64,000 nucleotides of DNA from Mytilus edulis (taxonomy: Eukaryota): contig NC_092352.1 of NCBI RefSeq assembly GCF_963676685.1, positions 25,234,001 through 25,298,000 of the forward strand, in the 5' to 3' direction. Below are positions 5,831 through 64,000 of the stretch, in pieces. The translations under genes and the position numbers were made by a program. Below the pieces are notes generated by a model. It saw nothing but the letters and a program-made list of their open reading frames with translations, was not told the DNA's origin and searched no databases. Positions within the stretch are counted from its first letter, which is position 1; every line of letters starts with the position of its first letter.

Positions 5831-6288
5831 TATACAAATAAAACTAGACACAGACCGTCAAGACCACTTGAATATCACCCCCTTCTTTTTGCAGGTTTTA
5901 ATTTCTCTGACAACTTTTTTTTCATTCTGCACAGCAACAATGTTATCTATTGAATAAAGCAAAATATTGATATTGTTTTCATTGATCTCAGTCTTGTTTA
6001 CTTTATTTATGTATACTAAGGACTAGTCTACATAATAGTATGTCAAACGTGTCCGTCGGATGGGAACGTTTAGTCCAATGTTCTGTGTTCAGGAAGTACA
6101 ACACTCTTTGCAAGTTAAAGATCCTTCTCAACAAGCTCTTTTTGGTAGGTCCATATCAAGTGACTGGTTGTTTAATTTATTGTATACTGTTTTGCTTTCA
6201 TGAACTATTTTTGTCTAAAATCTGTTAGTATTCATACTTGGGTGACTTCTGCCTTTTTCAATTAATGTTGTATAGTGTGTCATTGTGT

Positions 6289-7421: not shown

Positions 7422-8027
7422 TTATCTTAATATATGTTGTATACTTACTTGCTTTACTGGGATAGGTGATGGTATTGTCCGTTTTACTTCATCTATTGCT
7501 GTTGATTCTAAACCAAGAACTAATAAACTATTTGTAACCGTATTCCAATTTCTTAGATACTCGTCTTTTTTTACTCTTGTATTTTCTAATTCGTGGAAAT
7601 ATTCACTGAATTTTTCGAGTTCTTTTAAAGCGGGAAATTTTTTAAATTCTATAATATTGAATTCGCGTATTAAAAACGTTAAGATTTCGACGTCGAATTT
7701 TGGCATTCGACGACTCTTTGTTAACACATGACAAATACAACCATCTTTAATACACTTTTTTGTCCTGACTTCCATAAAGATACGACCCCACGCACGTTCA
7801 CTTAGTGTCTGTGTCTCATTTAAAACACATTTGTATTTGTTCTGGAAGCAGCAATAAGCATCATGGCGGAAACAATGCATTATCCTATGTTTGTTTCTGT
7901 CCAAAAATGTAAACAGCGTCAGGTATTGTGATTGTAAGTAATTATTGAGTAATCTTTTACAAAATGGTAAAACAACTCTCTCTAACAGAAGCCGAAGTCG
8001 CTCGTAGTACTCAGTATCTGTAAGCAT
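7422..8027 (-). CDS. Paralogue 2: ~200-aa Cys/His-rich protein with a DZIP3-type HEPN-like domain, catalytic motif degenerate
   Basis: Intact 201-aa ORF. YYERLRLLL..FDVEILTFLIREF..ALKELEKFSEYFH..VKKDEYLRNWNTVTNSLLVLG follows the HEPN_DZIP3 pattern as I recall it (FDITLL..LLRN / RNxxAH / ISxxEF..W..L..LG). Acceptor ttttatcttcatacag| at 8037/8036, probable donor CAA|gtaagt at 7449/7448, upstream non-coding exon donor CG|gtaagt at 8569/8568. Confidence 0.75.
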   Translation of the reverse strand: MLTDTEYYERLRLLLERVVLPFCKRLLNNYLQSQYLTLFTFLDRNKHRIMHCFRHDAYCCFQNKYKCVLNETQTLSERAWGRIFMEVRTKKCIKDGCICHVLTKSRRMPKFDVEILTFLIREFNIIEFKKFPALKELEKFSEYFHELENTRVKKDEYLRNWNTVTNSLLVLGLESTAIDEVKRTIPSPIPVKQVSIQHILR

Positions 8028-9176
8028 TCTTTGTCACTGTATGAAGATAAAAGAGATTTTAAATTTGTTAGAATTTTTATCTATTAAGATAAAATCTTCG
8101 TTGGTGATCAAGGTAACCAATGTAATTCTCAACATTCAAAAATAGGCAGCACATTCCTGGAAACTTTCAGTACATTATCAGATCGAACTTATCGGCGTTG
8201 AATGCCTTGAAAAAATCGGTTGAAAGTTTAGAAGAGTCAAAATTAATCAGTTAGAGAATATTGAATATAACATTTTATGAAAAGTTTCCCCCATTAGCTA
8301 CTGTACATAGTTAAATAAAACTTATAAATAAATACTTTTTCATATTCGGCCCGCATACTGTAGTAGTATGTTTTACAGTATGTCCTTTCAAATTATATTA
8401 GATGCCCAAGGTGTCGTATTTGTAATTTATAGACCAACTGGATTCATCCTTTTAAACAATTCTTGGGTGTATTTCCTTGACTTTAAACTTTTTCTACACT
8501 GATACAAAAACAAAAAGTGTCTTTAATAAAAAGAAAGAAAAATGATTAACTTTAAAATTGAAACTTACCGTAAAGTGTGTGTGTTATAAATTTAGCGTGA
8601 CCTCGACAATCATGTCACATTTATTTCAATTGGTTTGAAATAAATATCTCTTGTGCTTTGCGAAACAGAACGTTTAACATTCATTGTTGTTAAAAACATT
8701 ACTTAATATTCGTACATATACATTGTAGATTGAATCAGACTTACTAATACAGTAACTATTTTTTAGACGAATTTTATTTCTTTATCAAAAATTGCAATGC
8801 CGGTTATTCCTTATAATGTTTTAATTAATTCTTAACAATCTCTGAAGCCAAATACGTAAAAAAAAGAAAAATCCTTGTGCAGCTATATAATCAAAAGTAA
8901 CCTTACAATATAGTCAAATTCATCCATGGTCAACTTTGACAAAGGCAGTTTGGTGTAATTTTAGCTTCTTCAAAATTTATCAAATAACATTAAGAAATGG
9001 ATTTAGGGAGTGTGTCAAAGAGACAACAACCCGACCAAAGAGCAGAAAAGCAAAATTTAGGCAAAGTTTTTTAATAATAATTTCAGTATCGAATCACTGA
9101 ATACTAAAATGATGATACCCTAGTGGCTTAACAGTCCACCTATAGTGGAATCGACCAATATAAGAAAATGAATATT

Positions 9177-10057
9177 ATACTTGCCGACTTGTTTCTTTAT
9201 TATTATGAGGCTGACTTCATGCAGGAACTTCTTAGGAAGAAAGATAAGAAGTTAGCAATATCCTTTAACTCTACTTTCCGCTATATAGATGACGTTCTTT
9301 CACTAAACAATTCAAAATTTGGTGACTATGTGGAACGCATCTATCCCATCGAATTGGAGATAAAGGATACTACAGATACAGTTAAGTCGGCTTCATATCT
9401 TGACTTACATCTAGAAATTGACAATGAGGGTCGGTTGAAAACAAAACTTTACGACAAAAGAGATGATTTCAGTTTTCCAATTGTGAACTTTCCATTTCTA
9501 AGTAGCAACATTCCAGCAGCACCTGCATACGGGGTATATATCTCCCAGTTGATACGATATTCCCGTGCGTGCATTTCCTATCATGATTTTCTTGATAGAG
9601 GGTTACTGCTCACCAGGAAGCTATTAAACCAAGAGTTCCAAATGGTGAAGTTGAAATCATCCCTTCGTAAATTTTACGGACGCCATCACGAGTTGGTTGA
9701 ACGTTATGGAATAACCGTTTCACAAATGATATCGGATATGTTCCTTACGTCGTAACTACAGTCCCCTCCCATTTCATGAATGTGACCTACCGAATTAGAC
9801 TATTTACCGGATTTGTAATCACATAAGCAACACGACGGGTGCCACATGTGGAGCAGGATCTGCTTACCCTTCCGGAGCACCTGAGATCACCCCTAGTTTT
9901 TGGTGGGGTTCGTGTTGTTTATTCTTTAGTTTTCTATGTTGTGTCATGTGTACTATTGTTTTTCTGTTTGTCTTTTTCATTTTTAGCCATGGCGTTGTCA
10001 GTTTGTTTTAGATTTATGAGTTTGACTGTCCCTTTGGTATCTTTCGTCCCTCTTTTA
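9177..10057 (+). mobile_element. 5'-truncated Penelope-like element (probably Naiad clade): C-terminal half of the reverse transcriptase plus structured 3' UTR
   Basis: ORF 9168-9755 contains LADLFL..YE, FRYIDD, YLDL and LYDKRDDFSF.IVNFP..SSNIP...AYGVYISQLIRY, which are PLE RT and thumb motifs. It stops without a C-terminal GIY-YIG domain. Several other copies occur in the window. Confidence 0.9.
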
Positions 10058-11534
10058 TACAAATTTGGTGAGTTTAATTTGCAATTCTAGCAAAATGAAA
10101 AAGAAACTTAAATACAATTTTTTTCTGTAACTACTTTAAATATTGAAGTTTCTGTGAATATGATATATGAATGTCAATTTTTATTTTCGGAAAACCTTGA
10201 AGACGTATGATTTATAACGCTTTAACTGAGATAACCAATTGCAAAGTTCACAGCTCATATTCAATTGTGTGGCAAACCTCTCTCATGCTGTACTAAATGC
10301 AGCGTTATTTTAAAAGATTGTGTTTTTCGCTCTTTAGTTCTGCATCTCATGACTATGCAGGTAAAGACTCGCACTTGATGGTTGAGTTTGATTTAATCTG
10401 GGTTTTCTTTTTCTGTTTGTCTTTTTTCGGAAAACAACCTTATTAGTCTATGACTTTTTCTCATAAAAAAATATTCTTACTAGGAAAAAGGATACGCGTT
10501 ATTCTAGCGTATTTTGCCATTGATTTTGATTTTTTCTTTGTTTCAGATCGTTGGTCTCTCTCGAATTTCCTTACAAATTATCATATAGGTTCATCATACG
10601 TGCTGATTGGGGGTAAGATGGCATTTTTATTGCTGGGTTATTTCATTGACGTAAAATTAACAAAGAGCTATATCTACTTCATACTTTTGGGTAATTTTAC
10701 TTTTGTGCTTACTTTACTTTTACAGAACTTTGTTACGACGTTATGAGATAATATCATTTTTGGGGATAAAAGCTCTTGACCTTGCGTTTTTGTATGTTGT
10801 ACTAAACCAACTTTAAATAAAATGTTGTATTTTCTCTTTTAATGATCAAGAGAAATCCTGTTATGCAATCTTTTTTTCAAATAATGATTTACAGGTATAT
10901 CGATTACTCCTGAACATGTTCCTTCAACAAGCATTGCACAAGTAGATGCTTAAAGTGGGCCACTTTGTTTATATTGAACAGCCGATCAATTAATTCAAAA
11001 ATGTGATGTTATGATTCTGAAGTTAAATGTAGCCCCTTCAAATTTTAGAACATTAATTAATTTGTTTTCTCACCATCTTCTAAAGGTACGTGTTCTTTTA
11101 TTTGTTGGTACATTTTTGTATTCTGTCTTAAATTTTTGTCTATATGCCTTTTTGTGATTCTTTGTTACATATTTGTTTGTTTTATGGTGAATAAGATTAT
11201 AACAAAATGTTTTATTTAAAATGCGTGATAAATTATAATCCTGTTACTTTTGATAACTATTTACACCACTGGGTCGATAACACTGCTGGTGGACGTTTCG
11301 TCCCCGACGGTATCACCAGCCCAGTAGTTAACACTTCGGTGTTGACATGAATATCAATTATATGGTAATTTTTATAATTTCCCTTTACAAAACTTTTAAT
11401 TTTTCGAAAAACTAAGGATGTTCTTATCCCAGGAACAGATTACCTTAGACGTATTTGGCACAACTTTTTGGAATTTTGGTTCCTCAATGCTCTTCAACTT
11501 TGTACTTGTTTGGCTTTAAACTACTTTGATCTGA

Positions 11535-11578
11535 GCGTCACTGATGAGTCTTATGTAGACGAAACGCGCGTCTGGCGT
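11535..11578 (+). ncRNA. Type I hammerhead ribozyme (intact core)
   Basis: gcgtca-CTGATGA-gtct tatgt agac-GAAAC-gcgc-GTC^tggcgt: stem I gcgtca/tggcgt, stem II gtct/agac, short palindromic stem III. Predicted cleavage 11572/11573. Confidence 0.9.
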
Positions 11579-11886
11579 ATTAGATTATAATCCTGGTACC
11601 TTTGATAACTATTAAACCACTGGGTCGATAACACTGCTGGTGGAAGTTTCGTCTCCGAGGGTATCACCAGCCCAGTAGTCAGCACTTCGGTTTTGACATG
11701 AATATCAATTATATGGTCATTTATATAAATTTCCCGTTTCAAAACTTTGAATTTTTCGAAAAACTAAGGATGTCCTTATTCCAGGAATAGATTTCCTTAG
11801 ACGTATTTGGTACAACCTTTTGGAATTTTGGTTCCTCAATGCTCTTCAACTTTGTACTTGTTTGACTTTTAACTATTTTGATCTGA

Positions 11887-11930
11887 GCGTCACTGATGAG
11901 GGTTATGTAGACGAAACGCGCGTCTGGCGT
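11887..11930 (+). ncRNA. Type I hammerhead ribozyme, second copy with disrupted stem II
   Basis: CTGATGA-gggttatgtagac-GAAAC-gcgc-GTC: gtc>ggg removes two stem II pairs. Cleavage position 11924/11925. Confidence 0.75.
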
Positions 11931-14900
11931 ATTAAATTATAATCCTGGTACCTTTGATAACTAAATATAGCCCTTTTTGGGGACATTTTTACCTATTATT
12001 TCTGGTTGTTGTGTTCAGACATCGTTGTCAATATAATGGAATTTGATGCGACTGTCATACAAGTGAGAGCTTTAGCTAGCTATAAAACCAGGTTTAATCC
12101 ACCGTTTTCTACATTAGAAAAGGCCTGTACCAAGTCAAGAATATGACATTTTTTTTCTATTGGTTTGACCTTTTGGTTTTGCCATTTGTTTAGGGACTTT
12201 TCTTTTTGAATTTTCCTCGGAGTTCAGTATTTATGTGAATGTTATTCTCTTTTCATACTGTTATGATAATTTTTTTTTCGTTTCTATATATGTTGACGTT
12301 TGTTTTTGCTGTAGTTCAGTCTTTCTGGTGATCCGTTGTTTTGTTCTTATAGTTGATGTGGTTCCCTCGTTGTTTGTTTTTTTTTCTTTTTTGTATGTGA
12401 CCCGGATTTGTTAAATCGCCTAATCGATTTATGTATATTGAACCGCGGTATACTACTGTTGCTTTAATTTAATAGTACAATGTATTTATAAAATAAATTC
12501 TGAATTCGACATAAAACTGCATTTTCCACATTGTATTGTTTTAAACTGTATATGCCACTAATAAAAGCAAGAAAGATTTTTTTTATAATACTTCCATCAT
12601 CCAAATGGCAATCAGTCGTGTTCTCATGAAGAAAAGATAAACAAATCCACTGTTTCTTTTTTTTTTCGATGTTGATCATAGTCCTTAAATAGAAAATCAA
12701 AAATAAAATATTAGATACGTTGTTAACCATGAAAAATAAATCAAGAAAGGATGGAAACATAATATTTTTACTTATAAATTTTAGTACACTACGCATAAAA
12801 AAAATAATGAATCTTCATAAAAAGGGGCTAATTACAAATAGTGTACTTATTGGAACTATGTTTTCCTCAATATGATAATGTAGGCAAATATGACAATCTT
12901 GTTTTCTAAACGTTTCAGATTGCCAAATGATATCATTCATATCAATAAGATTTAAGCCTTTTACGATTTTTATTTTAAAACCTCCAAATAATGCAATTCC
13001 AGAAGTGTATCTAACCAAATGACGACCTTAACTGAGGGAAATAACCCTTTTTAGTATAAAATGCAACATTTATAGTGAGCATAATTCTGAAATTAAAGTT
13101 TTGAAGTTTCCAACACAAAACGAAAAAAAATGTTCAACTGCTGTACAAAAATAATACATTAACGTGTATATCAATTAGATTTCATTCCCATATCGTGACA
13201 TTCAACATTGTATGTTTACTTACATGTTAGAGCGACAGCCAGTCCAATACCTAGTGGGACTCCAATAATAACTAATGTCTGTAAGTATTAAAGTTAAGGA
13301 TAATGTGACATCAGTTCTTTTTACATTGTATACATTTTATTCCATAAAACTATATATTTGTTTTGCTGCACTGTAATGCTGATGTTATGGTTTATTAAAA
13401 TAATGATTATTGTCAATCAGACAACTATATTCTTCAAAAGATCAGAAGTCAAAGGATCTTCAACAACTATAAGATTTGAAACAGCCTTCAAAAATTATTA
13501 AAGGCATACTGTATAGTAAGTTATACATACATTGTTATAAACTTTCTCTGAAGATATTATAACTGTTTTTCAATAAATCTAAAAAGAAGAAAATGGTACT
13601 ATCGCCAACTTATCTGAGATGGAGAAACATTCAAATGTCACTGTTTTTTCTTCAACGATAAGGCAAGAACTATAATGCTACAAGCTATGAATGGACCATC
13701 GAATACAAAATTAGACCGTTAAAAAAATATAATAGCCTTATTTGGGTCAATCTAATCAAACAAACAAAAAGTATACCATGGAGATAACAACCACTGAATA
13801 GACTCTTCAATTGAAAGTCAAATAAAATAGCATAAAACTATGAGATGCAAACAGCTCCTCCTACTTTAAGGGTTCTTCAGAGAAAATGGTTAATTGATGT
13901 GTGTCATGACCTAAATTGACACGTGTCTCAATCGGAAATAATATTGATTGTGATTCTTTACATTTGGAAAATCATACAAATTCTATAATTAAGAAAACTG
14001 AAGAGGGTGAAAGAATAGATGAGTAGGATGTCCGGAGACTGTATAAATTCATTTTTTTTTTCAATTTTGGAGAAATCTTTCTTCAACTTGACTTTCAAAA
14101 TCTGTCCATGTAATATATTGATCATTTAGAGTTATTTTAAGCTTTTAGATGTCCTCTGAGTGTGACAATCTAAACAAAGTAATCACTATATTTGATAATT
14201 AAATCGTCTGCTGAAGGTTAAACACTTGACCTTTATAACTATTTATATTTATTTTATGGGTCTTCTGCATATTTAACTTAATTGCTATTGTATGCTTTAA
14301 GAAATAAACCAGGTCTTATGCCTTTTATACGAGTTTCTGTTTCAGCGAATAAGATTTACGGATATTAGTTTTGTCTGAGTAGAATAGAAAGCTTTGATGT
14401 ACAAATGCAAAAGCCATAAAGGATACAGCCAGTATATAGGCTACTATTCTACATTTGAGAAAGCGGTGTCTCCATTTCTAAAATAAAAATAAAATGATGC
14501 CTTTAAACCATGAAAAGCATTAAAAATCGATATAGTATACAAACTTAAATCGGCAAAAGTATGTGCACACCCTAAAACCAACTTTATATTAATTTCGTTA
14601 GATTCTGTAAATAACGTTAGAATAGCTTCTGGTTAAATTAAGTTGCCATTTTAAGGCTGCAGACTATGTTTTCAAAATGGAAATATGAATGATTTTTTTT
14701 TTTAACTCAGCACTGTAGATTCTTCATTTTCAGGTAAAGCCGTTAAGGCCGCTCATTATTGTGTATATGTGACATAACATCAACAGTTTTGTGCACTTAA
14801 TTTTATTCAATTCAATGCATAATATTAAAATTTGAAGAAAGAGTTCTCAATTGTCCATTGTCAGTTGTATTCACACCCAAATGAGTTCTGACACGAAATA

Positions 14901-14948: not shown

Positions 14949-15674
14949 TTACGACTGGTAACGACCAGTATTTTCAATAGAATCTGATGCATTTTTATTT
15001 AATGAAGTAATAAGTGCTGAATAGTTTGGATAATAAATCATTAAATATTTATTATTGGCATGTAGTTTTAATCTAAGAAATACCACTTGGCATGTTTCAG
15101 GTTGCTCATATTCCGGTATATCTTCTACTGGCATTGTTCTCACTTCTTCAATCTGTTTTTTAGTAACACCAAGTTTTCGAAGGTATTCTGACGCATTTTT
15201 CCATTTAGTTTCAAATGCTTCGTTGCTTATCTTTTTAGGTCTCATAAATTCACAGAGTCTACATTCTCGATGAAGACCTCGTATACTGGGCATAACGTCT
15301 GAATTACCGGCAACGAAAGTCACCATCAATAAAGAAAGTATGTAAAAGTCTAAATGAGATGCACGAACATGGTTCGTTATAACATTACACACGCACGTCA
15401 CTTTGTTACAATGTGGATTTTTTGTGTCGTCGTACAAGATAAGCCATTGACTTCTCACAAGCGGAAGCTTCTCTGGACTCTTGCAGTTGATGGCGTTTGG
15501 ACAACAAGCACCCGGTAGTCTGTATAAGTGAAGAACCCGATGTTTGTGACGATCAAGTAAAACCGAAAACGATAACATATTTTCTTTTAGATATTCGTCT
15601 AATATTTTCAGCAAGGCTGGCTTTCCACATAACTGAAACAATTTCAGCATCCGTTTGTAGTGGGCATGTTCCAT
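14949..15674 (-). CDS. Paralogue 3: Cys/His-rich DZIP3-HEPN-like protein, catalytic motif absent
   Basis: Intact 241-aa ORF that aligns with paralogue 2 over about 190 aa (HYKRMLKL, LLDRHKHRVLHLYR..CC..C, QW, CNKVTCVC, LDFYILSLL, ISNEAFETKWKNASEYLRKLG). The last ~45 aa may be intron read-through. Acceptor at about 15699; candidate upstream donor TG|gtgagt at about 16595. Confidence 0.75.
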   Translation of the reverse strand: MEHAHYKRMLKLFQLCGKPALLKILDEYLKENMLSFSVLLDRHKHRVLHLYRLPGACCPNAINCKSPEKLPLVRSQWLILYDDTKNPHCNKVTCVCNVITNHVRASHLDFYILSLLMVTFVAGNSDVMPSIRGLHRECRLCEFMRPKKISNEAFETKWKNASEYLRKLGVTKKQIEEVRTMPVEDIPEYEQPETCQVVFLRLKLHANNKYLMIYYPNYSALITSLNKNASDSIENTGRYQS

Positions 15675-15812
15675 ATTTTACAAAAAAAAATCCTCATTCT
15701 ATAAAAAAAAAAAATCAAAACCAATATGTGTTACAGCATAACAATATGAATGGCGTTGCATAGAAGATGAATTTGAAATATCTGAAGTTACAGATTCGTT
15801 GAATGAATAGGA

Positions 15813-23100: not shown

Positions 23101-26100
23101 TCCAATATACCTGTTTGTTATACACCCAGCTTTTTCACTGTATTCTGTTTAAAAGCCTTCCACAATATTCTATAATATTCTAACAAATTTAGTATGCTTA
23201 TAACAAGCATATCTTGCCCTCATGGCTTCACTGTTTTATATAAAAAAAAAATTAGGTACAGTGGTAAAATATTTGCAGTTTTTATAGTAAACAGCTTCAA
23301 AGTAAATGATTAATTGTACCAGTAGATTATAATGTTGATTCTTGATTGTAGTTGTAGTTCCTCAATACATTTGATAAAATGGCACATTAATAAAAGATAT
23401 TATTTTCTTTAAAATTAATTTTCTTTTTTGATAAATGAATTTCTGTGTATTTTTTTTCAAACACCAGTCTATGTTCAATGTTCACATATTTCCCTTAAAT
23501 TTTGAAACTGATATCACTTGAAAAACTAACAGAATGTATGTTTAATCACATTTTCTCTCTATAGCGACAGTTTACAAATATTATAAATGTTGTTATATAA
23601 TAAGTGAACATTTTTTTAAGATAAAATGTAAAAGAATTTGTAATTATTGAATGATGCAACTAAAATTGACTAAAAATGTATGGTGATTATTTAACTATTC
23701 TTTATCTATTCCCAACTAGGTCATGTTCAGTGTTATATATTAGGATATTTTATTTATTTCAGTTGAAATGCAACAGAAAAACATAGACCTAGAATCCGAC
23801 AACAGTAATTTGAATCTTAACCAAGAGAATTTCAGATTAGCATTAGATCATGCTGTGCATGTTTCAACGGAACAACAGAACCAGCTTCAGAATCTGATCA
23901 CAGACCGTGTGAACTTACAGAGGCGATTTGAACAGGCTATAGATACTGCTGAACAATTAAATACAATTAATGTACAACATGTTACTAATAATGGTCTATT
24001 GCAAAACGAGTGTACAAGGCTCATTGGAGAGAATAATCAAGTAAATACAAGATGTAATAGGTTACATCAAGATAATAGAAGAAAGGACATGCAAATTGTT
24101 GGTCTTGACAAAGAAATTGTTCAGTTGATTGTACAAGTAGCTGAAAAGGAAACTAACTTAAAACAAAAAGACACTACCATAGAACATCTGACATCACAGA
24201 ATGAACAACAAAGCACAACCATTGAACAGCAAGGCACAACCATTGAACAAAAAGACACTACCATTGAACATCTGACATCACAGAATAAGGAAAAAGATGG
24301 TAAAATTAAAGACATGAAGTGCATGAACAAAAAACTTTATAGTGATCTCCAAGAAAAACAAGAATTGTGTGTAGAAAAAGATAGGCAGCTTAAAAAACAA
24401 TGTCTAGTCATTGATGAGTTACATGTGGAAATGAGTGCTACGAATGAAAGACTTGCAAATCTGGAAAAAGGTCTTGAAAAGAAAAATAAACATATCAGTG
24501 AACAAGATAAAATGATCAGTGATTTAAATGATAAAGTACAATCTCAGGACAAAGTAAACCAAGATCTGTTTGAACAGTTACTGGAGTTAAAAAACATGTA
24601 AGTACATGTACATTTGAATTAGAGAAATACCCGTACATAAAGATGGGTTTTTTTTTAAAGTCTATAAAAATGAAGATGTTATAGCAGTCTTACATGTATT
24701 ATCATGATTATCGAGAGAAAATGTTTATTTGATAATTAGAATTCCTCTGCTGTTTGTTTCTACTTGTACTAGCAAATGACTAGTATTATACATGTAAATG
24801 TATGTTATTTAAAGAAAGTATGTCCATCATTATCAAAGTTGTAGTACATATATATTGGAAACAGAAAGATGAACAAGTTATGGAAATTATAATTATTTAG
24901 GTTTATTGCAAGTATTTGATGAATATGGTACCCAGTTTATTTATCATATTGCACAGCATATCATTTAATGAGGGATAATATAATATTTACAAATAATGAA
25001 TGCCACAAAAGGTCAGAATGGGACATCAAATTTGATGCCTTCATAAGGTAGTGTGTATGTCCATAGGCAGAAATCTCATAAGTGGCCGTGTCTAAATCCC
25101 ATTTGTCAATTAAGGAATTTGACATACTGTACATGTATATATAGATATGGCTGAAATACATATTTTATAGTTTTGTTAAACTTATTTTCAACTTGTCTAG
25201 ATTTGTTTTAGCTTAGCAAATGGTATGGACACTAGTTTATAATCGAAAAAAAAGATAACATTTATGTTTACCTCTAGAAACATTTTGGCTTTATTCAATT
25301 GTATTGAAAGAAGTAAAAAAAAATGTAAAACTGATGTCATTGACATTGTGCATAACAATACTTTTGAATAATTGTCATCATGTTCATTAGATGCAAATAT
25401 TCTTGAGATGAATGACAGATATCAAAGACCTCTGTGATCATCAAAACAAAATATGTCTAAAAGTAAAGAAGCAGTTGCAACCTTAGCATGCTCAGTTTTA
25501 GTAATATTACATAATGTATAACATACTTTTTAGCACCAGGTGATAACAGTTTATCTTCTATAATGTATCAGTTTAATGTCTTAAAATTTAAACTTATATA
25601 CTTGAACCTTACATTTAGTGCTACATGTATTCTCCTTCTCATTAAAGTGGAAATGAAGACACCTGAATGGTTTAAATTCTAATTTTATTTTTCACTTCAT
25701 ACCAAAATCACATCCATAAAAAGTCTAAATTGTGTTAAAGTATTTTTAATGTGTTTTTTTTGTATCAGGTTCAGTATTAGACTGTATCATGTAGTTAAGG
25801 AAATATGATAGAAATATGCAAAACAAAAGACGGTGTGCTTGCATTGTCCATTTTTGTTAAGCCGTTCCTAAAACACTGATTACTTGTACAAAAAAATCTG
25901 TACAAATTATAATTTGTACAACATAACAACTTGTACACAACATATATATAGTAGAAGTTCATATAATAACAAAATACAAAATGTATATACATGATATGAA
26001 TATTTAAAAAGTCTAAATAGAAAACTACGTTCAAACCTTGAATATTATATATAAAACTGTGAAAACATCACATGTACATGTATTATTTTTCATTGTAGGT

Positions 26101-32213: not shown

Positions 32214-35202
32214 TAACTCTTAAAAATAATAAAACAGTTTCATAAATTTTTTGTTCACATTGAGTACAGACATACAGGGATAAAATGCCACTTTCTTTGT
32301 AAATGCTTAACTTCTCATTTTCCAATTTTGGTTTGCTTGAATATTTAGAGATGTGGTATTATTGCCAATGAGTCATCTGTCCACCTTGAGACCAATTGAT
32401 GTAGATACAAGCAACTATAGATCATTATATAGCTGTCAACATTATGAGCCAAACTCATACTCTATAGTAAGTTTTAAATGGTCTGGCAGAAAAAATGTGA
32501 AATAATTTAAAAAAAAAAAAAAAAAAACCCAATAGCCTGATCTATGCTAGAAGTAAAACAAATATGACTGAGATCAACCAATGACAACTAAAACATTCAA
32601 AGAGTTTTTAACATTCCAAAATAATTTTTCAAATATTTTCATATTGCTTTCTGAAGACAAAATAGCGTTAAGGGAATATTAAATTTCAGGGCAAAAAGAT
32701 AGAACACTTATTAGAGCTGAGATTAAGTGAAGAAATAGACATTAGCTAAATTGGAAATCCAGCAACATCCATAAAGTACTGCTAACCATATTCAAATATT
32801 AAAACTGACATCCTTTTGATTTTTCAGGATTGAGAATTTTGAAAAAATAACTTGGTCTGGTAAAAAGTAAAGTATTAAGATTAAAATAAATGATCAATCT
32901 CCAAGATTTCTCTTCCCCTGAAATATTATTGATTGTGTAGACATGTGGTGCACAGTATATCTGTTTTATGGAAATTTCGACTGAGGCTGAGACTATAACC
33001 ACATAGAAGTAGAAGAATTTGATTTACAGTATATTTCTCTTTAAAAGTATCAATAGCACATGCAAACTTCATTACAAATTACCTAGAACATACTATGTAT
33101 TATAGCTGAAACAAGTATACTATCAATATATTATGTCCCAGGTTATAGCAGTCTCAGAAATTACATGTACTTTTAACAAATCATGCAGGTGCACTCGACT
33201 CCAATCATAATTGACAAGGATTGTCAGTTTTCCTATCAAAGGTTGGTAGTTTTCTACGGGCACTCCAGCTTCCTCAACCAATAAAAACTGGCGACCACCT
33301 AATAGCAAAATTGCAGTGCTTAAAAGTTGCGTAAAAATATCTTAAAACACCAAAAAACAAAAAACAAAAAAATACTTTTTAAAAACACCTACAATATAAA
33401 AAAGGGCAACTTTTGAAATATTTGATTACTAAATATAAATAAGAAATAATCAGATAAAATTATGTCGATTACAGTCATTACAGGTCATGTATATATGTGA
33501 GAAACTAGTTAAGCTTCTGTGGATAATTGATGTGTTCCTTATCATTAGGGAGGATTTACAGGCAAGTAGATGCATTCACACATGTTGCAGTCGTTTCTCT
33601 CCCCTTCCCATATAGTTCCCAAAACTAAAAGAGAAAGCAAAAACAAAGGTTAGATTATTGGAGTAAGATAATGGATATTGTCACTCACAGTTAGTTCCCA
33701 ATATAAATTTACTATCTAATAAGTATGACTAAGTGGGGATATGTGGGTGCCATCTGGAACTCTAACCCATATATGTGTTATGATGGTCGACTACCCAAAA
33801 AATGGGCGTAGCTAGGTATCCAATAAACTATACTCTATAGGCACAAATTGTGGCAGGCCCACAGCAGGTTTAGGGAAGAGCATTGGTAGGGGTTGAAGCC
33901 CCGTACAACAGAAAACGTTTTTTCAGCATCTTAGTTGCAAAATTTGGTGTACAAAAACATTTAGGCTACTGGTTATTTTATTTCATTTGGATCAGCATAG
34001 CCCTTTATTAAGCAGCAGAACCTGTTTCTGCTTCAGTATAATTAAAATATACGTCAATTGATAGTACATATTGATGAGCCTACATTAAAAAAAAGAAATA
34101 GATAAATAAACACTGAGACTACCATAATATTACTATCTTTTGGACTGCATGTCCACCATTCATCTTTTGATTCTTAAACCTTCACCCTTCCCTGGCCTCA
34201 CAAACACATACACAGTCAATATGTCATGCTGAAGTTCTGTTATGTTCTGTTCATACTATCTAACAAAATTTAGACTGACCCTTGTTTGTGCCCCCCAACC
34301 CTAACTTTTTTATGGCATCAGCCAAAAAAAAAAAAAAAATCTGGAATTTCAGCTTTTTCCCTGGCCGATTTGCATTTTATTGTATTTTTAAAAATCGATT
34401 TCCCATGTGTAAAAAAAAAACAAAAAAAACTTCTTACTTACCCTTATTTTAAAAAGGATGTTACTGGAAAAACACATATTTTTTTTAGGCCTAATTATGA
34501 AAAAATCATTTTTAGAAGTGAAATAATTTTTTTTTTGGCCCACAACATACATGAATCAGTAGAATATTAAGGTGGAATATATGATGACATACAGTTCCAA
34601 TGCTCTACTGATTCACTAAGGATAATAGAAAAGGGTTTTGACGACTTCACATGCATCTACATGCAGACATGAAAGACAGATAAGTTAACATTGCTTATTA
34701 ATTTTTTAAATAAACCAAAATTGGTGAGAAAAAATTATATGTAGGCATGTGACTAAAGTGTCTAACAGCAGCTACATGCCTGCCATATATAACTTCTATA
34801 ATTGTATATTATCAATTATCATGTATATGGATAGTTGACCTTCATAACACATACATGTATGTTGTCTGAAAAGAAGAGGAACAGTTTTATCACAAAGTTT
34901 TTACATTCTCAAAAGTGTATGTAGATTTTAAGTATATTTATTCTTTATGTTCTTAGAGTCTAATTTTGTGTATGAAGATAGAATTTCTTTGAAATCTTTG
35001 CAATGGAACCTAAGAGTTTTATTGACAAATACTAAATAATTTCTAATCTACAATCTATTATTTTATCTTTAGTTTCAGTTGAATTTAAATGAATCATTCT
35101 GTTTTCAGAGCAATAAATAATGAAATGAGAGATATTGGAATGCAACATTATAGTGCACTGTAAGAGAGAAATTGGCAAAATATACAACTCACAGAATTAG
35201 AG

Positions 35203-37044
35203 ATGCAACAGAAGGAGACAGGCACAGACTTTTTGTCACAAATCAATGAATCATCATATAATCAAGATGAGAATACTTTAATAAGTGATCAACAAAAGGA
35301 GACAGACCCAGACTTTTTGTCACAAATCAATAAATCTTCAAATAGTCAAGATGAGAATATTACTTTAACGAGAAATCAAGGATCCAAGAAGTGCCAGTGT
35401 CAGATATGCAAAAACTTTTACTTTTCTGAATACTCTTTAAAGATTCACTTGAAACGTATGCATGCAGAAAACTTGGTTCATACTTGTAGGAATTGTGGAA
35501 AAAGCTTTAACCAAAGATACAACTTATTTATTCATATGAAGTATCACTACAATCAAATACCTAGACCATTTGCATGCAAAGAATGTGGTAAAACTTTCAC
35601 TTCAAAACATCGTTTATTCGTTCATCAACAGACCCATTCTACTGATAAGTTTACTTGTAGCATTTGTGGAAAAGAATTGTTAACCTCAGAGGGTAGAAGA
35701 AATCACTATCGACGTCATGTCAAAGAAAAAAGGCATGCATATGAAATATGTGGTCACAAATTTCATTCTCCTTCAGAACTGGATGCCCATTCTATAACAC
35801 ATGAGAGACAGTTTTTTGAATGTTCTTTGTGCAATAAAAAATATTCTACATACAAACTGCTTGAAAGACATGAGAAGATTCACACTGGAAATTATGATAG
35901 ACCTGTTACATGTCACCTTTGTCACAAGTTTTTCTTCCGATTGTCTGTTTTAAAAAGACATATAAAAGAAGTGCATAGCAGTACTACCTACAGTTGTGAT
36001 ATCTGCGGAACTAAGACAAAATCTGAAAAAAATCTTAAATTACACTACAAGAGGATTCATTCAACACGTTCAGGAGAAAAGAAGTTTAATTGTACAGTTT
36101 GTGACAAAAAATTTAGTTTTAAAACCTGCTTAGTTGACCATTTCAGAAGATGTCACACTGACCCAGAAAATGTAAAATATCCTTATACTTGTCATATTTG
36201 TAAAAAAGGATTTTTTGTAAAAGCAATATATGAAGGTCACTTAAATACCCATTTTGGAAAAAGACCATTTTCATGTCAGTATTGTCCTAAATCTTACTGT
36301 AATATTTATTATCTAAATATTCATACCAAAAGAACTCATTCTGGAAGAAAAGTCTGTAAACCAAAGCCATTTGAGTGTGAATTTTGTGGTAAAATGTTTG
36401 ATTATAAAAGTACAAGAAAAGAACACATCAGAAAACACACAGGATATTATTGCCCATTTGTATGTTCAATTTGTGGAAAAACTTTAAAATCAAAATTAAG
36501 TTATAAGATGCATCAAAACACACATTCAAGACCATTTCACTGTGGAATTTGTCAAGCAAGATATAGTTCTAATAAAGCACTTGTTAAACATATGAAATCG
36601 CATGAGAAGGAATTACCGGCACCAAAAATAAAAGTTGAAGATGAAACTATAGGACAGAAAACAAGATTGGTAGGTTTTGAAGAACACATTGCTTCATCCA
36701 ATAAGTTTAAGAATTTAGATACAGTACAACCAAATTTTACTGTTAGCACAATAATAGATGGACATGACTTACAAGAATTTTCTATTTCCAATGCAAAGTC
36801 AGGTCTTACAAGTTCCACATTGCCAAATCCTACAGTAAAGACTGAACAACCTTCAAGATATATTCCTTTCAACAGCCACCATGAGGAAGACAGCAACCTC
36901 AATTCCACTACTAGTAATGTGCTTATGTTAAACAAAATAGGATCTTTTAAAGTCAGTGCAGAAAGTCTAAAAGAGATATTAAGTGGAAAGCAAGTTTTAT
37001 CTCTTGTCAAAAGGGAGAATGCTATAAAGAAAGAAAATCAGTAA
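35203..37044 (+). CDS. C2H2 zinc-finger protein (14 fingers, finger 5 degenerate), encoded by a single large exon
   Basis: 613-aa ORF with tandem CxxC-x12-Hx3-4H motifs and HTG/KRPF-type linkers. Splice acceptor ctgttttcag| at 35108/35109. N-terminal 28-aa duplication. Confidence 0.92.
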   Translation: MQQKETGTDFLSQINESSYNQDENTLISDQQKETDPDFLSQINKSSNSQDENITLTRNQGSKKCQCQICKNFYFSEYSLKIHLKRMHAENLVHTCRNCGKSFNQRYNLFIHMKYHYNQIPRPFACKECGKTFTSKHRLFVHQQTHSTDKFTCSICGKELLTSEGRRNHYRRHVKEKRHAYEICGHKFHSPSELDAHSITHERQFFECSLCNKKYSTYKLLERHEKIHTGNYDRPVTCHLCHKFFFRLSVLKRHIKEVHSSTTYSCDICGTKTKSEKNLKLHYKRIHSTRSGEKKFNCTVCDKKFSFKTCLVDHFRRCHTDPENVKYPYTCHICKKGFFVKAIYEGHLNTHFGKRPFSCQYCPKSYCNIYYLNIHTKRTHSGRKVCKPKPFECEFCGKMFDYKSTRKEHIRKHTGYYCPFVCSICGKTLKSKLSYKMHQNTHSRPFHCGICQARYSSNKALVKHMKSHEKELPAPKIKVEDETIGQKTRLVGFEEHIASSNKFKNLDTVQPNFTVSTIIDGHDLQEFSISNAKSGLTSSTLPNPTVKTEQPSRYIPFNSHHEEDSNLNSTTSNVLMLNKIGSFKVSAESLKEILSGKQVLSLVKRENAIKKENQ

Positions 37045-61000: not shown

Positions 61001-61596
61001 GACCATTGCAAGTGTAATTAATGCTAGAATAAATTGATCTTTTCTGATTATTTATTTGTTTTATAACATAGTATGTTAAAGGATCATTATGATATTAAGT
61101 GCTTTTCAAATATAAAATATCGGCCAATTTATCATTAATGAGTGGATTAAGTATTAAAATATATATCTGAGTGAAAATTTAATAAGTGTATTTCAAAATG
61201 TTTAGGTTGAACAATCTAAAGTATTTTTTTTATATTTCAAGATATTTGACCTTTTATCATGTTTATTGATTCGAGAATGTCAATATAAAATAATAGTTAT
61301 TTTGAAGTAGACTTTCTGTATACCTTAAGCAAATGCTGAGTCTGAGATCATTTGATAGTGTTATTTCACAACTGAGAAAACAGAACTGTCAGGGTGCAAC
61401 CCCTCTTTAGCTTCTGTATTTAGGAATAATTTGATATTTAGCTGGAACCTTATGATGTTCAGTTGCAACTTGTACCTTATGTTAGTTATTTTCATATCTG
61501 CTAGGCAATTGCTTCCTCTTTAACAGCACTTTAACATCTAATGACGACTTGGGGGTATACTTAGATAGGTTGTACTACACTGCATCTTCTTTTCCT

Positions 61597-63383
61597 GCTA
61601 GATAAACCTATTTGACTGGTATGTAATCTTGCTAGACAAACCTCCTATTTGACTGGTATGTAATCTTGCTAGATAAACCTCCTATTTGACTGGTATGTAA
61701 TCTTGCTAGATAAACCTCTTATTTGACTGGTATGTAATCTTGCTAGACAAACCTCCTATTTGACTGGTATGTAATCTTGCTAGATAAACCTCCTATTTGA
61801 CTGGTATGTAATCTTGCTAGATAAACCTCCTATTTGACTGGTATGTAATCTTGCTAGATAAACCTCCTATTTGACTGGTATGTAATCTTGCTAGATAAAC
61901 CTCTTATTTGACTGGTATGTAATCTTGCTAGATAAACCTCCTATTTGACTGGTATGTAATCTTGCTAGATAAACCTCCTATTTGACTGGTATGTAATCTT
62001 GCTAGATAAACCTCCTATTTGACTGGTATGTAATCTTGCTAGATAAACCTCCTATTTGACTGGTATGTAATCTTGCTAGATAAACCTCCTATTTGACTGG
62101 TATGTAATCTTGCTAGATAAACCTCCTATTTGACTGGTATGTAATCTTGCTAGATAAACCTCCTATTTGACTGGTATGTAATCTTGCTAGATAAACCTCC
62201 TATTTGACTGGTATGTAATCTTGCTAGATAAACCTCCTATTTGACTGGTATGTAATCTTGCTAGATAAACCTCCTATTTGACTGGTATGTAATCTTGCTA
62301 GATAAACCTATTTGACTGGTATGTAATCTTGCTAGATAAACCTCTTATTTGACTGGTATGTAATCTTGCCAGATAAACCTCTTATTTGACTGGTATGTAA
62401 TCTTGCCAGATAAACCTCCTATTTGACTGGTATGTAATCTTGCTAGATAAAACCTCCTATTTGACTGGTATGTAATCTTGCTAGATAAACCTCTTATTTG
62501 ACTGGTATGTAATCTTGCTAGATAAACCTCCTATTTGACTGGTATGTAATCTTGCTAGATAAACCTATTTGACTGGTATGTAATCTTGCTAGATAAACCT
62601 CCTATTTGACTGGTATGTAATCTTGCTAGATAAACCTCCTATTTGACTGGTATGTAATCTGGTATGTAATCTTGCTAGATAAACCTCCTATTTGACTGGT
62701 ATGTAATCTTGCTAGATAAACTTCCTATTTGACTGGTATGTAATCTTGCTAGATAAACCTCTTATTTGACTGGTATGTAATCTTGCTAGATAAACCTCTT
62801 ATTTGACTGGTATGTAATCTTGCTAGATAAACCTCTTATTTGACTGGTATGTAATCTTGCTAGATAAACCTCTTATTTGACTGGTATGTAATCTTGCTAG
62901 ATAAACCTCTTATTTGACTGGTATGTAATCTTGCTAGATAAACCTCCTATTTGACTGGTATGTAATCTTGCTAGATAAACCTCCTATTTGACTGGTATGT
63001 AATCTTGCTAGATAAACCTCTTATTTGACTGGTATGTAATCTTGCTAGATAAACCTCTTATTTGACTGGTATGTAATCTTGCTAGATAAACCTCCTATTT
63101 GACTGGTATGTAATCTTGCTAGATAAACCTCTTATTTGACTGGTATGTAATCTTGCTAGATAAACCTCTTATTTGACTGGTATGTAATCTTGCTAGATAA
63201 ACCTCCTATTTGACTGGTATGTAATCTTGCTAGATAAACCTCCTATTTGACTGGTATGTAATCTTGCTAGATAAACCTCCTATTTGACTGGTATGTAATC
63301 TTGCTAGATAAACCTCCTATTTGACTGGTATGTAATCTTGCTAGAAAAATCTCCTATTTGACTGGTATGTAATCTTGCTAGAT
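61597..63383. repeat. 37-bp minisatellite, about 48 near-identical copies
   Basis: Unit ctagataaacctc[c/t]tatttgactggtatgtaatcttg, head-to-tail with no spacers. Confidence 0.98.
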
Positions 63384-64000
63384 ATATTCCAATCATGCAT
63401 GACAATAATTAATACAGAAAGAAATCAGAAGAAAATTTCTTTCAGGTAGATTTCAATCTTATTTGAAGTATCTGATAATTAATGATTATTCTTCATGCAC
63501 ACAGACTATAAATCTTATGGTCATCTCTCTGGCTAGTGTAAAAGAGAAGAACAGACGGATGATCTCCTACATAAATGTATATGTCAAAAATGAGATTTTC
63601 TCGTTTAGCTTCTTTTGAAAATTTGTAATAAAAAAAAGTAAATTTATAAAATTTCATATGTTGAAACAGCAAAAGTTTTTGTCAGATTATTTGATTGGAA
63701 ATAAATTCTTAAACAAAAATTAGATGAACATACATCTCTTAAATGTTTCACAAAGGTGCTGTGTGGTTAATATAGATATATATATTTCTCTAATTCTTCG
63801 TCAATTTATCCCTTTCTGCACCCGTTGTATAAAAAAATTTAATCAACGTATGGTTCGTTTGATCTCAGTTCTTCATTGGTTAAAATCCAATTATGACGTT
63901 GAATTTTCTTGTTTTCCTCTGAATTTTCTATTGTGACGGCATGAAAAAAGGCAACCATGCCTGATGACGTCACATAGAAAGAGCACATCTTTTTGCAGAT

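What the first reader, a model, noticed from the sequence alone, without database searches (positions are those of the whole stretch)
11221..11962. Hammerhead retrozyme dimer whose left boundary coincides with the ribozyme cleavage site
Seen: predicted cleavage sites at 11572/3 and 11924/5 are 352 nt apart. One period earlier is 11221, exactly where repeat homology begins (tgcgt..aattataatcctg), and the array overshoots the last site by about 38 nt. Established: metazoan non-LTR retrozymes, including those of Mytilus, are tandem repeats with type I hammerheads that yield abundant small circular RNAs. Inference: this locus is a cDNA copy of a self-cleaved multimeric or circular RNA inserted into an older repeat, and could template a 352-nt linear or circular RNA.
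Basis: partly seen in the sequence, partly recalled or inferred. Interest (0 to 1): 0.7.

Follow-up and report, generated by a model that had tools for sequence, protein, structure and literature searches.

The report
Mussel retrozyme carries Naiad start signal
This is an ageing two-unit copy of a known self-cutting, circle-forming mussel repeat; its left edge most likely meets the cut site by chance, but copies across the genome share one right edge, just before a predicted RNA fold that also opens Naiad jumping genes, which likely names the enzyme that copies these RNAs into the genome and where it would start.

Summary
The dimer is real: 11223-11963, period 352, a homologue of the published Mytilus retrozyme. 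Left ends of genomic copies are scattered (1 of 85 at +1..+3 from the cut; no peak at +1 in a targeted sample). The 'overshoot' is the conserved feature: right ends fall at +38..+48 in 82 of 86 and 21 of 26 arrays. Directly 3' of that end lies a ~60-nt predicted stem-loop that also forms the 5' leader of three Naiad (Penelope-like, hammerhead-less) families here, up to 55/64 identical with compensatory changes, and opens 10 published Naiad consensuses. Naiad copies end in the same register. Likely mechanism: Naiad RT binds this fold, starts internally just upstream, and copies round a circular or multimeric RNA for a variable length. This copy is decayed: ribozyme 2 has lost helix II, and RNA reads carry family alleles, not its own. 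Family sense RNA is abundant and unbroken across the cut site. No enzyme step is tested. The scan noted the same Naiad signal at other copies; I found it here before looking.

The parts
11223..11963 (+). Retrozyme array, 2.1 units; one insertion with a junction unique in the genome
11223..11572 (+). Unit 1, from +3 to the first cut site; the left end is read as a 5' truncation
11573..11924 (+). Unit 2, 352 nt between the two cut sites; 8.3% different from unit 1, sharing 6 rare variants with it
11925..11963 (+). Terminal +1..+39 segment; its right end is the family's fixed 3' end (inferred start of reverse transcription)
11535..11578 (+). Type I hammerhead 1, core and helices I-III intact; predicted cut 11572/3
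   Evidence: (33.0 bits, E 3.7e-6)
11887..11930 (+). Type I hammerhead 2, helix II broken at 11901-11902; predicted impaired
11268..11325 (+). Naiad-leader-like stem-loop in unit 1 (2 of 23 pairs broken)
11619..11676 (+). Naiad-leader-like stem-loop in unit 2 (2 of 23 pairs broken)
11212..11222 (.). 11-nt filler between host repeat and array; about 9 nt of target are missing; no target-site duplication
11143..11211 (+). Host repeat, left part: piece of a Naiad-2-type 3' UTR (80-86% identical)
11982..12260 (+). Host repeat, right part: Naiad-2-type 3' end (82-84% identical)

Best explanation
The locus is an ageing two-unit copy of the mussel hammerhead retrozyme, likely written into the genome by the reverse transcriptase of a Naiad (Penelope-like) retrotransposon, which would bind a shared ~60-nt predicted RNA fold, start copying a few bases upstream of it, and run round a probably circular RNA until it fell off. 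Shown by sequence: family membership, one fixed right end (+39..+43), scattered left ends, the same motif directly 3' of the fixed end in retrozymes and Naiads, compensatory base changes, and abundant sense RNA continuous across the cut site. Inferred: that the hammerhead serves to make the unit-length circle but does not set insertion ends; that Naiad protein binds the fold; internal initiation; a circular rather than uncleaved multimeric template. Here the enzyme would have made about 2.1 turns and stopped near the cut site by chance. The copy has since decayed and likely yields little or no circle itself. Component odds: membership 0.97, left edge is chance 0.85, Naiad is the helper 0.75, internal start on a circle 0.55.
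For: Right ends: +39..+48 in 82 of 86 arrays taken by position along contig C1 (the anchor lies at +14..+39, so this sample is biased), and +38..+48 in 21 of 26 arrays anchored mid-unit. Flank bases stop matching after +41..+43. A second 350-bp hammerhead family ends in the same register in 18 of 23 arrays. Left ends: resultant length 0.17 against 0.94 for right ends; median array 246 bp. Motif: 10 of 10 full-length Naiad-1 copies carry it between upstream pLTR and ORF (alignment score 63, best of 1000 shuffles 42), with the same predicted fold. Against Naiad-1, 9 of 23 pairs change, none breaks, 6 change on both sides; against Naiad-3 (one copy seen, L285) 55/64 identical, 3 pairs change, none breaks. 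Naiad-2 has the core in 7 of 8 copies. Naiad 3' ends in retrozyme numbering: +37..+43 in 10 of 10, +40..+43 in 18 of 19, +39..+45 in 6 of 7 (converted). The motif opens 10 published Naiad consensuses. One template per array: 8 identical units in L046; the two window units share 6 rare variants. RNA: sense-minus-antisense depth ratio across +41 is 1.05-1.26 against 2.72 in genomic copies; no pile-up of ends; many reads wrap round the unit. Precedent: a Poseidon RT starts internally, needs RNA 3' of the start, and does not need hammerhead cleavage (PMC11167929).
Against: No binding or enzyme step is tested. Covariation rests on few independent families (8 rows), and the tool warns that relatedness inflates it. 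A small excess of left ends near the cut exists in the positional sample: 6 of 85 within 3 nt (p 0.003), though 5 are 43-50-nt copies ending at -2/-3 and only 1 of 72 arrays over 100 nt does so. Within-array divergence was below that to the nearest outside unit in only 12 of 22 arrays. The window's units differ at several family-polymorphic sites (+28, +111, +147, +179), which hints at conversion or mixed templates. Short reads cannot tell circles from uncleaved multimers. Leaders of hammerhead-bearing Penelope clades in this genome were not examined. Both window units carry a change at +60 that breaks one pair of the fold.
Confidence: 0.65

Rival explanations
1. One reading: the template was a self-cleaved linear multimer, and reverse transcription ran off its 5' end at the cut site, so the left edge records cleavage.
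For: The left edge lies within 2 nt of the cut register. 6 of 85 left ends lie within 3 nt of the cut. It cannot be excluded for this single copy.
Against: Only 1 of 85 left ends is at +1..+3, and 1 of 72 within 3 nt among arrays over 100 nt. Among 86 junctions placed by eye at -7..+9, 5 are at +1 against a mean of 5.4 (chi-square p 0.23). The near-cut short copies keep the TC upstream of the cut, which a cleaved 5' end would lack. The flank repeats AAAATG just before the junction, so the first bases may be filler.
Confidence: 0.08
2. The shared fold is an RNA-end-forming element (a second self-cleaving ribozyme, or an internal promoter) that makes linear unit-length RNAs ending at about +41; RT primes at that 3' end and jumps to another molecule to build tandems.
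For: Published Naiad consensuses begin at the motif. Ribozymes at 5' ends are known for R2 and RTE elements (PMC7761336 passage). Naiads lack a canonical hammerhead. It explains the fixed end equally well. Sense depth dips about 25-30% just after +41.
Against: Sense RNA is continuous across +41, with no listed pile-up of ends. Ends are ragged over about 5 nt. No Rfam family matches the motif on the sense strand at E up to 10. Identical units in long arrays favour one template although the RNA pool is reported to be mixed.
Confidence: 0.15
3. A shorter copy was inserted and the dimer arose later by DNA-level tandem duplication or unequal exchange; no circle is needed.
For: It also explains the 6 shared rare variants. 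Local amplification is proposed for vertebrate retrozymes (bioRxiv 10.64898/2026.07.22.740005).
Against: Lengths run continuously from 33 to 1650 bp with one fixed end and free left ends, as expected from copying of variable length. Young arrays are already multimeric.
Confidence: 0.1
4. Another enzyme (a hammerhead-bearing Penelope, Neptune or Hydra element, or a LINE) moves the retrozyme, and the Naiad-like fold is only inherited.
For: Xenopus retrozymes resemble pLTRs of PLEs. Those clades were not surveyed here.
Against: The fold is kept in three retrozyme families and three Naiad families, always just 3' of the fixed end. Naiads are young and abundant here: 113 and 141 scored copies at 94-100% and 89-100% identity, many with intact ORFs. 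No poly(A) tail and no regular target-site duplication.
Confidence: 0.1

Closest known systems
Mytilus galloprovincialis non-LTR retrozyme (Cervera and de la Pena 2020, PMC7229834, parts 1-4 of 6 read, supplement unreadable; PMC4918200 Additional file 11, read as PDF text)
   Same: 350-390-bp tandem units with a type I hammerhead; a 353-nt construct is named. The published 375-nt sequence shares, by eye, the hammerhead blocks, the stem-loop and the central blocks. Thousands of copies; expressed as abundant RNA.
   Different: The parts read give no insertion-end analysis, no named helper and no cis signal; the review PMC7761336 (passages) says metazoan repeats show no motif that identifies the helper. 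This copy has a broken second ribozyme.
Naiad Penelope-like elements (Craig et al. 2021, PMC8557442; passages and supplement search hits)
   Same: 5' truncation, partial tandems, fixed 3' end, no regular target-site duplication. The Naiad-2 leader here reads like the start of Naiad_Mgal and Naiad_Mcor. Shared 5' fold.
   Different: Naiads encode N-terminal GIY-YIG plus RT and lack a canonical hammerhead; the retrozyme is non-coding and has one. A term search of the main text found 'stem-loop' and 'hairpin' 0 times.
Poseidon PAc of Anolis (Frangieh et al. 2024, PMC11167929, parts 1-2 of 4 read)
   Same: Reverse transcription starts internally, tens of bases 3' of the hammerhead cut; RNA 3' of the start is needed; cleavage is not needed; AT-rich targets.
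   Different: Other clade, autonomous; the signal lies inside the ORF; no sequence likeness was tested.
Xenopus retrozymes as PLE derivatives (bioRxiv 10.64898/2026.07.22.740005, parts 1-3 of 5 read, supplements closed)
   Same: Retrozymes tied to Penelope-like elements by sequence.
   Different: There the likeness is to pLTRs; no mussel was sampled among the classes named, no Naiad link, no end mapping. Here the link is the 5' leader, which lies outside the pLTR.

Membership tests
Metazoan non-LTR retrozyme | Tandem units of 150-450 bp, low GC, no ORF | tested here: met
   352-bp period; no ORF of 140 aa or more over the array
Metazoan non-LTR retrozyme | Type I hammerhead in each unit | tested here: met
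   Rfam RF00163 33.0 and 24.8 bits, both under the gathering score of 34; second has helix II broken
Metazoan non-LTR retrozyme | Homology to the published Mytilus retrozyme | tested here: met
   Shared blocks by eye against PMC4918200 Additional file 11; no alignment run
Metazoan non-LTR retrozyme | Dispersed, high copy number | tested here: met
   12,275 exact matches of a 26-mer in 1.37 Gb; reversed control 0
Metazoan non-LTR retrozyme | Expressed as circular RNA | tested here: inconclusive
   Family sense RNA flat round the unit, reads wrap; circles and multimers not separable; this locus's alleles nearly absent
Metazoan non-LTR retrozyme | Self-cleavage | not testable with these tools
   Shown for a published mussel clone (kobs about 0.1 per min), not for this copy
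Non-autonomous partner of Naiad | Shared cis sequence in the same position relative to the 3' end | tested here: met
Non-autonomous partner of Naiad | PLE-type insertion pattern (fixed 3' end, 5' truncation, tandems, no regular TSD) | tested here: met
   junction repeats of 6 nt or more in 6 of 82 against 3.8% in shuffled pairs
Non-autonomous partner of Naiad | Intact autonomous elements in the same genome | tested here: met
   1007-aa and 1053-aa open frames; Pfam GIY-YIG at 138-226 (E 1.4e-4) and RVT_1 (E 0.008), both under curated cut-offs
Non-autonomous partner of Naiad | Copied by Naiad protein | not testable with these tools
   needs an in vitro assay
Non-autonomous partner of Naiad | Motif absent from other RT clades | not tested
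   other PLE clades and LINEs not surveyed
cDNA of a self-cleaved linear RNA | Ends cluster at the cut site | tested here: not met

The most novel reading that the evidence does not exclude
Naiads and mussel retrozymes share an old RNA fold (bivalves to hemichordates) that their telomerase-related RT binds to start copying just upstream on a circular or tandem RNA. Retrozymes are then viroid-like circles that stole only this start signal and use the hammerhead just to become round. A 60-nt tag would make any RNA circle a substrate for genomic insertion.
Probability: 0.5. Interest if true: 0.78.

Novelty: new variant of a known kind. Interest (0 to 1): 0.58.

Why it matters
The locus itself is an ordinary, decayed copy of a published family. 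The family-level pattern matters. Which enzyme copies animal retrozyme circles into DNA, and where it starts, is stated as open in the papers read. A named helper (Naiad), a named signal and a mapped start make this testable with one purified protein and a few RNA mutants. It would also give a first cis element for Naiads, which are very abundant in bivalve genomes yet lack the hammerhead of other Penelope-like elements. I did not find this link in six library searches; subscription papers and closed supplements were not seen.

Tried and rejected
1. Rfam at gathering level found nothing in the window; only the E-value mode showed the hammerheads. 2. An apparent left-end mode at unit position 305 was a local-alignment artefact and vanished on remapping. 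3. The cluster of left ends just upstream of the cut reflects selection for full monomers, so that sample was not used for left ends. 4. The idea that the dimer travels inside a larger composite element: rejected, the left junction has 1 match in the genome at up to 2 mismatches, and the Naiad fragment upstream ends at about 10060. 5. The idea that the retrozyme is the Naiad pLTR end: rejected, the retrozyme relic in the Naiad-1 3' UTR is internal and decayed. 6. A systematic target-site duplication: not found. 7. A pseudoknot or HDV-like fold for the motif was considered by eye; the extra pairing is not kept in the published Naiad leaders, so it was dropped. 8. A pile of read starts at 11785-6 is read as clipping at this copy's private mismatches; it did not recur on a near-typical unit. 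9. No indexed holder was on record as RNA; the four raw RNA runs came in by species label. 10. The pattern had a wrong spacer and gave 4 hits; the one left out typical family-A and Naiad-1 copies by its last letter, so its 110 hits are no census. 11. Rows dropped before counts: 3 duplicate or split rows and the window itself from 90, 1 more with N flank for left ends; 114 of the 200 rows (indel variants, internal deletions, repeats of one composite, junctions at -8/-9 or beyond +9), 5 loci set aside beforehand or not family B by eye plus 5 low-scoring and 2 edge rows.
Full report
Numbering: +1 is the first base after the hammerhead cut; negative numbers count back from it.

1. The observation. 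The window lies in a 1.37-Gb genome with 14 large contigs; the repeat likeness below points to a Mytilus mussel (inference). A 352-bp repeat of 2.1 copies spans 11223-11963. Rfam places type I hammerheads at 11535-11578 (33.0 bits) and 11887-11930 (24.8 bits), giving cuts at 11572/3 and 11924/5. Homology starts at 11223, i.e. +3, not exactly at 11221. The array ends 39 nt after the second cut. It interrupts an older repeat; about 9 nt of target are lost, 11 nt of filler stand on the left, and there is no duplication. The older repeat is a piece of a Naiad-type 3' UTR. The left junction occurs once in the genome.

2. Family. The published 375-nt M. galloprovincialis retrozyme shares the same blocks by eye (PMC4918200 Additional file 11). 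PMC7229834 (parts 1-4 of 6) reports about 5000 such hammerheads, 350-390-bp units, slow self-cleavage and mostly circular RNA. A 26-mer from +14..+39 has 12,275 exact matches here.

3. The left edge. I fetched all of the first 100 matches along contig C1 and mapped array ends: 86 arrays after dropping 3 duplicate or split rows and the window. Left ends are scattered (resultant length 0.17). One of 85 lies at +1..+3. Six lie within 3 nt of the cut, more than uniform (p 0.003), but five of these are 43-50-nt copies ending at -2/-3, and only 1 of 72 arrays over 100 nt does so. A targeted display of 200 of 849 junction-enriched matches gave 86 junctions that I placed by eye at -7..+9; 5 fall at +1 against a mean of 5.4 (chi-square p 0.23). 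With some ten thousand copies, many will end near +1 by chance. The coincidence is therefore most likely chance, though a minor run-off class cannot be excluded.

4. The right edge. Right ends fall at +39..+48 in 82 of 86 arrays (biased, since the anchor sits next to this end) and at +38..+48 in 21 of 26 arrays anchored mid-unit. Flank bases stop matching after +41..+43. RNA reads from other animals also run off into unrelated flanks behind +40..+43. A fixed 3' end 41 nt past the cut cannot come from the 3' end of a cleaved monomer. The template must continue through the cut site: a circle or an uncleaved multimer (inference).

5. What lies just 3' of that end. Chasing a recurrent flank led to RT fragments and to young elements with an N-terminal GIY-YIG-like domain, a DKA motif and RT, the marks of Naiad given in PMC8557442. 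In 10 of 10 full-length Naiad-1 copies, the short leader between the upstream pLTR and the ORF matches retrozyme +38..+107. Both fold to the same predicted structure. Nine of 23 pairs differ, none breaks, six change on both sides. On 8 rows, 96% of cells pair against 34-51% when slid (few independent families, structure taken from one row). A second family (58% protein identity) carries the core with an added hairpin in 7 of 8 copies. A third, seen once in full context, is 55/64 identical to the retrozyme and is followed by a GIY-YIG frame. All three families end a few bases before the first stem: +37..+43 in 10 of 10, +39..+45 in 6 of 7, +40..+43 in 18 of 19 (converted). A second hammerhead family ends at +38..+48 in 18 of 23 arrays, and two arrays of a third do likewise. 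The 10-base core occurs 12 times in the Naiad supplement; I saw it within the first 70 bases of 10 consensuses (CGi, Sglo, Tgra, Mcor, Mgal, Bpla, Skow-1, Pfla-1, Pfla-2, Cmel), once inside a record, and did not identify one place. That Skow and Pfla are hemichordates is recalled, not looked up. The paper covers 36 animal hosts, so the exact core is not universal.

6. RNA. Four runs from two studies, chosen by species label, were laid on a typical unit turned so that the cut lies in the middle. In three stranded runs the strand read as sense (assuming the usual library polarity) is mostly 2-5 times deeper near the ribozyme and about 4-20 times deeper elsewhere. Antisense depth drops 2.2-2.7-fold across +41, like the genomic copies (2.72), so it looks like read-through. 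Sense minus antisense is nearly flat (1.05-1.26), with a dip of about 25-30% just after +41. No pile-up of ends was listed, and hundreds to over a thousand reads per stranded run wrap round the unit. This fits circles or uncleaved multimers. On the window itself reads carry family alleles at this copy's private sites, for example T at 11901 in 145 of 146, 172 of 180 and 234 of 240 sense reads. The animals differ from the assembled one, so this does not show that the locus is silent.

7. State of this copy. The units differ by 8.3% and lie 4.9% and 6.2% from the family majority (median 3.7%). They share 6 rare variants, which points to one template. Ribozyme 2 has lost helix II, and each stem-loop has 2 broken pairs. 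Release of a 352-nt monomer needs both cuts, so it is predicted to be poor. Core 1 might still cut site 2 through the palindromic helix III segment (dimeric hammerheads are known).

8. Mechanism. Shown: fixed right end, free left end, tandem units, shared motif in register, covariation, abundant continuous sense RNA. Inferred: read-through transcripts of intact dimers are cut twice and ligated to circles (published for the family); Naiad protein nicks AT-rich DNA, binds the fold, starts just 5' of it, and copies for a variable length, passing the cut junction after about 41 nt. Internal initiation that needs downstream RNA and no ribozyme cut has been shown for a Poseidon element. Rivals: run-off from a cleaved end (0.08), an end-forming role of the fold with template jumps (0.15), DNA-level duplication (0.10), another helper (0.10).

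9. Novelty. The element is known and this copy is ordinary. The helper and signal are not in the papers read: PMC7761336 (passages) says no motif identifies the helper, and the 2026 preprint (parts 1-3 of 5) links Xenopus retrozymes to pLTRs without end mapping or Naiads. Supplements of PMC7229834 and of the preprint could not be seen and may bear on this. Earlier agents of this scan reported the same Naiad signal at other copies, in this genome and another. Those notes are not independent support; my result came before I opened them.

10. Verdict. Observation partly confirmed; first reading partly supported. Interest 0.58, carried by the family-level mechanism and not by the left-edge coincidence.

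Noticed in passing
window 9147-10060 (+): Young 5'-truncated Naiad copy (RT C-terminus plus 3' UTR), 97-98% identical to 39 other scored copies; its family has the leader closest to the retrozyme motif.
   Followed up: partly
window 12334-12471 (+): Old Naiad-1-type 3' end, about 68% identical, in the same orientation as the array.
   Followed up: partly
L185-L214 and L215-L224, 3' UTR: All 30 Naiad-1 copies examined carry a decayed retrozyme relic (about 70% identical, ribozyme degenerate) inside the 3' UTR, followed by pieces of other Naiad ends; the UTR looks like a chain of captured 3' ends.
   Followed up: partly
L147-L154, about 6100-6190 in oriented coordinates: A repeated 535-bp segment, downstream of a Naiad-2 RT frame in L152, holds a 29-nt retrozyme 3' end (+13..+41).
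   Followed up: partly
L247 around the motif: Short tandem of Naiad-1 3' end plus leader motif with no hammerhead found; possibly a minimal non-autonomous Naiad.
   Followed up: no
L227-L258: At least two more ~350-bp hammerhead repeat families (about 70% and about 82% local identity to the window family) share the motif and the end register.
   Followed up: partly
L052, L059, L104, L123: A few insertions have long duplications (50-137 nt) across their flanks; most have none.
   Followed up: no
window 61596-63384: Minisatellite of 37 bp, 48 copies, 96% matches.
   Followed up: no
window 7425-8033 (-) and 14952-15677 (-): Two open frames with similar-looking starts flank the locus; perhaps exons of tandem paralogues. 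Others at 23744-24598 and 35164-37041 (+).
   Followed up: no
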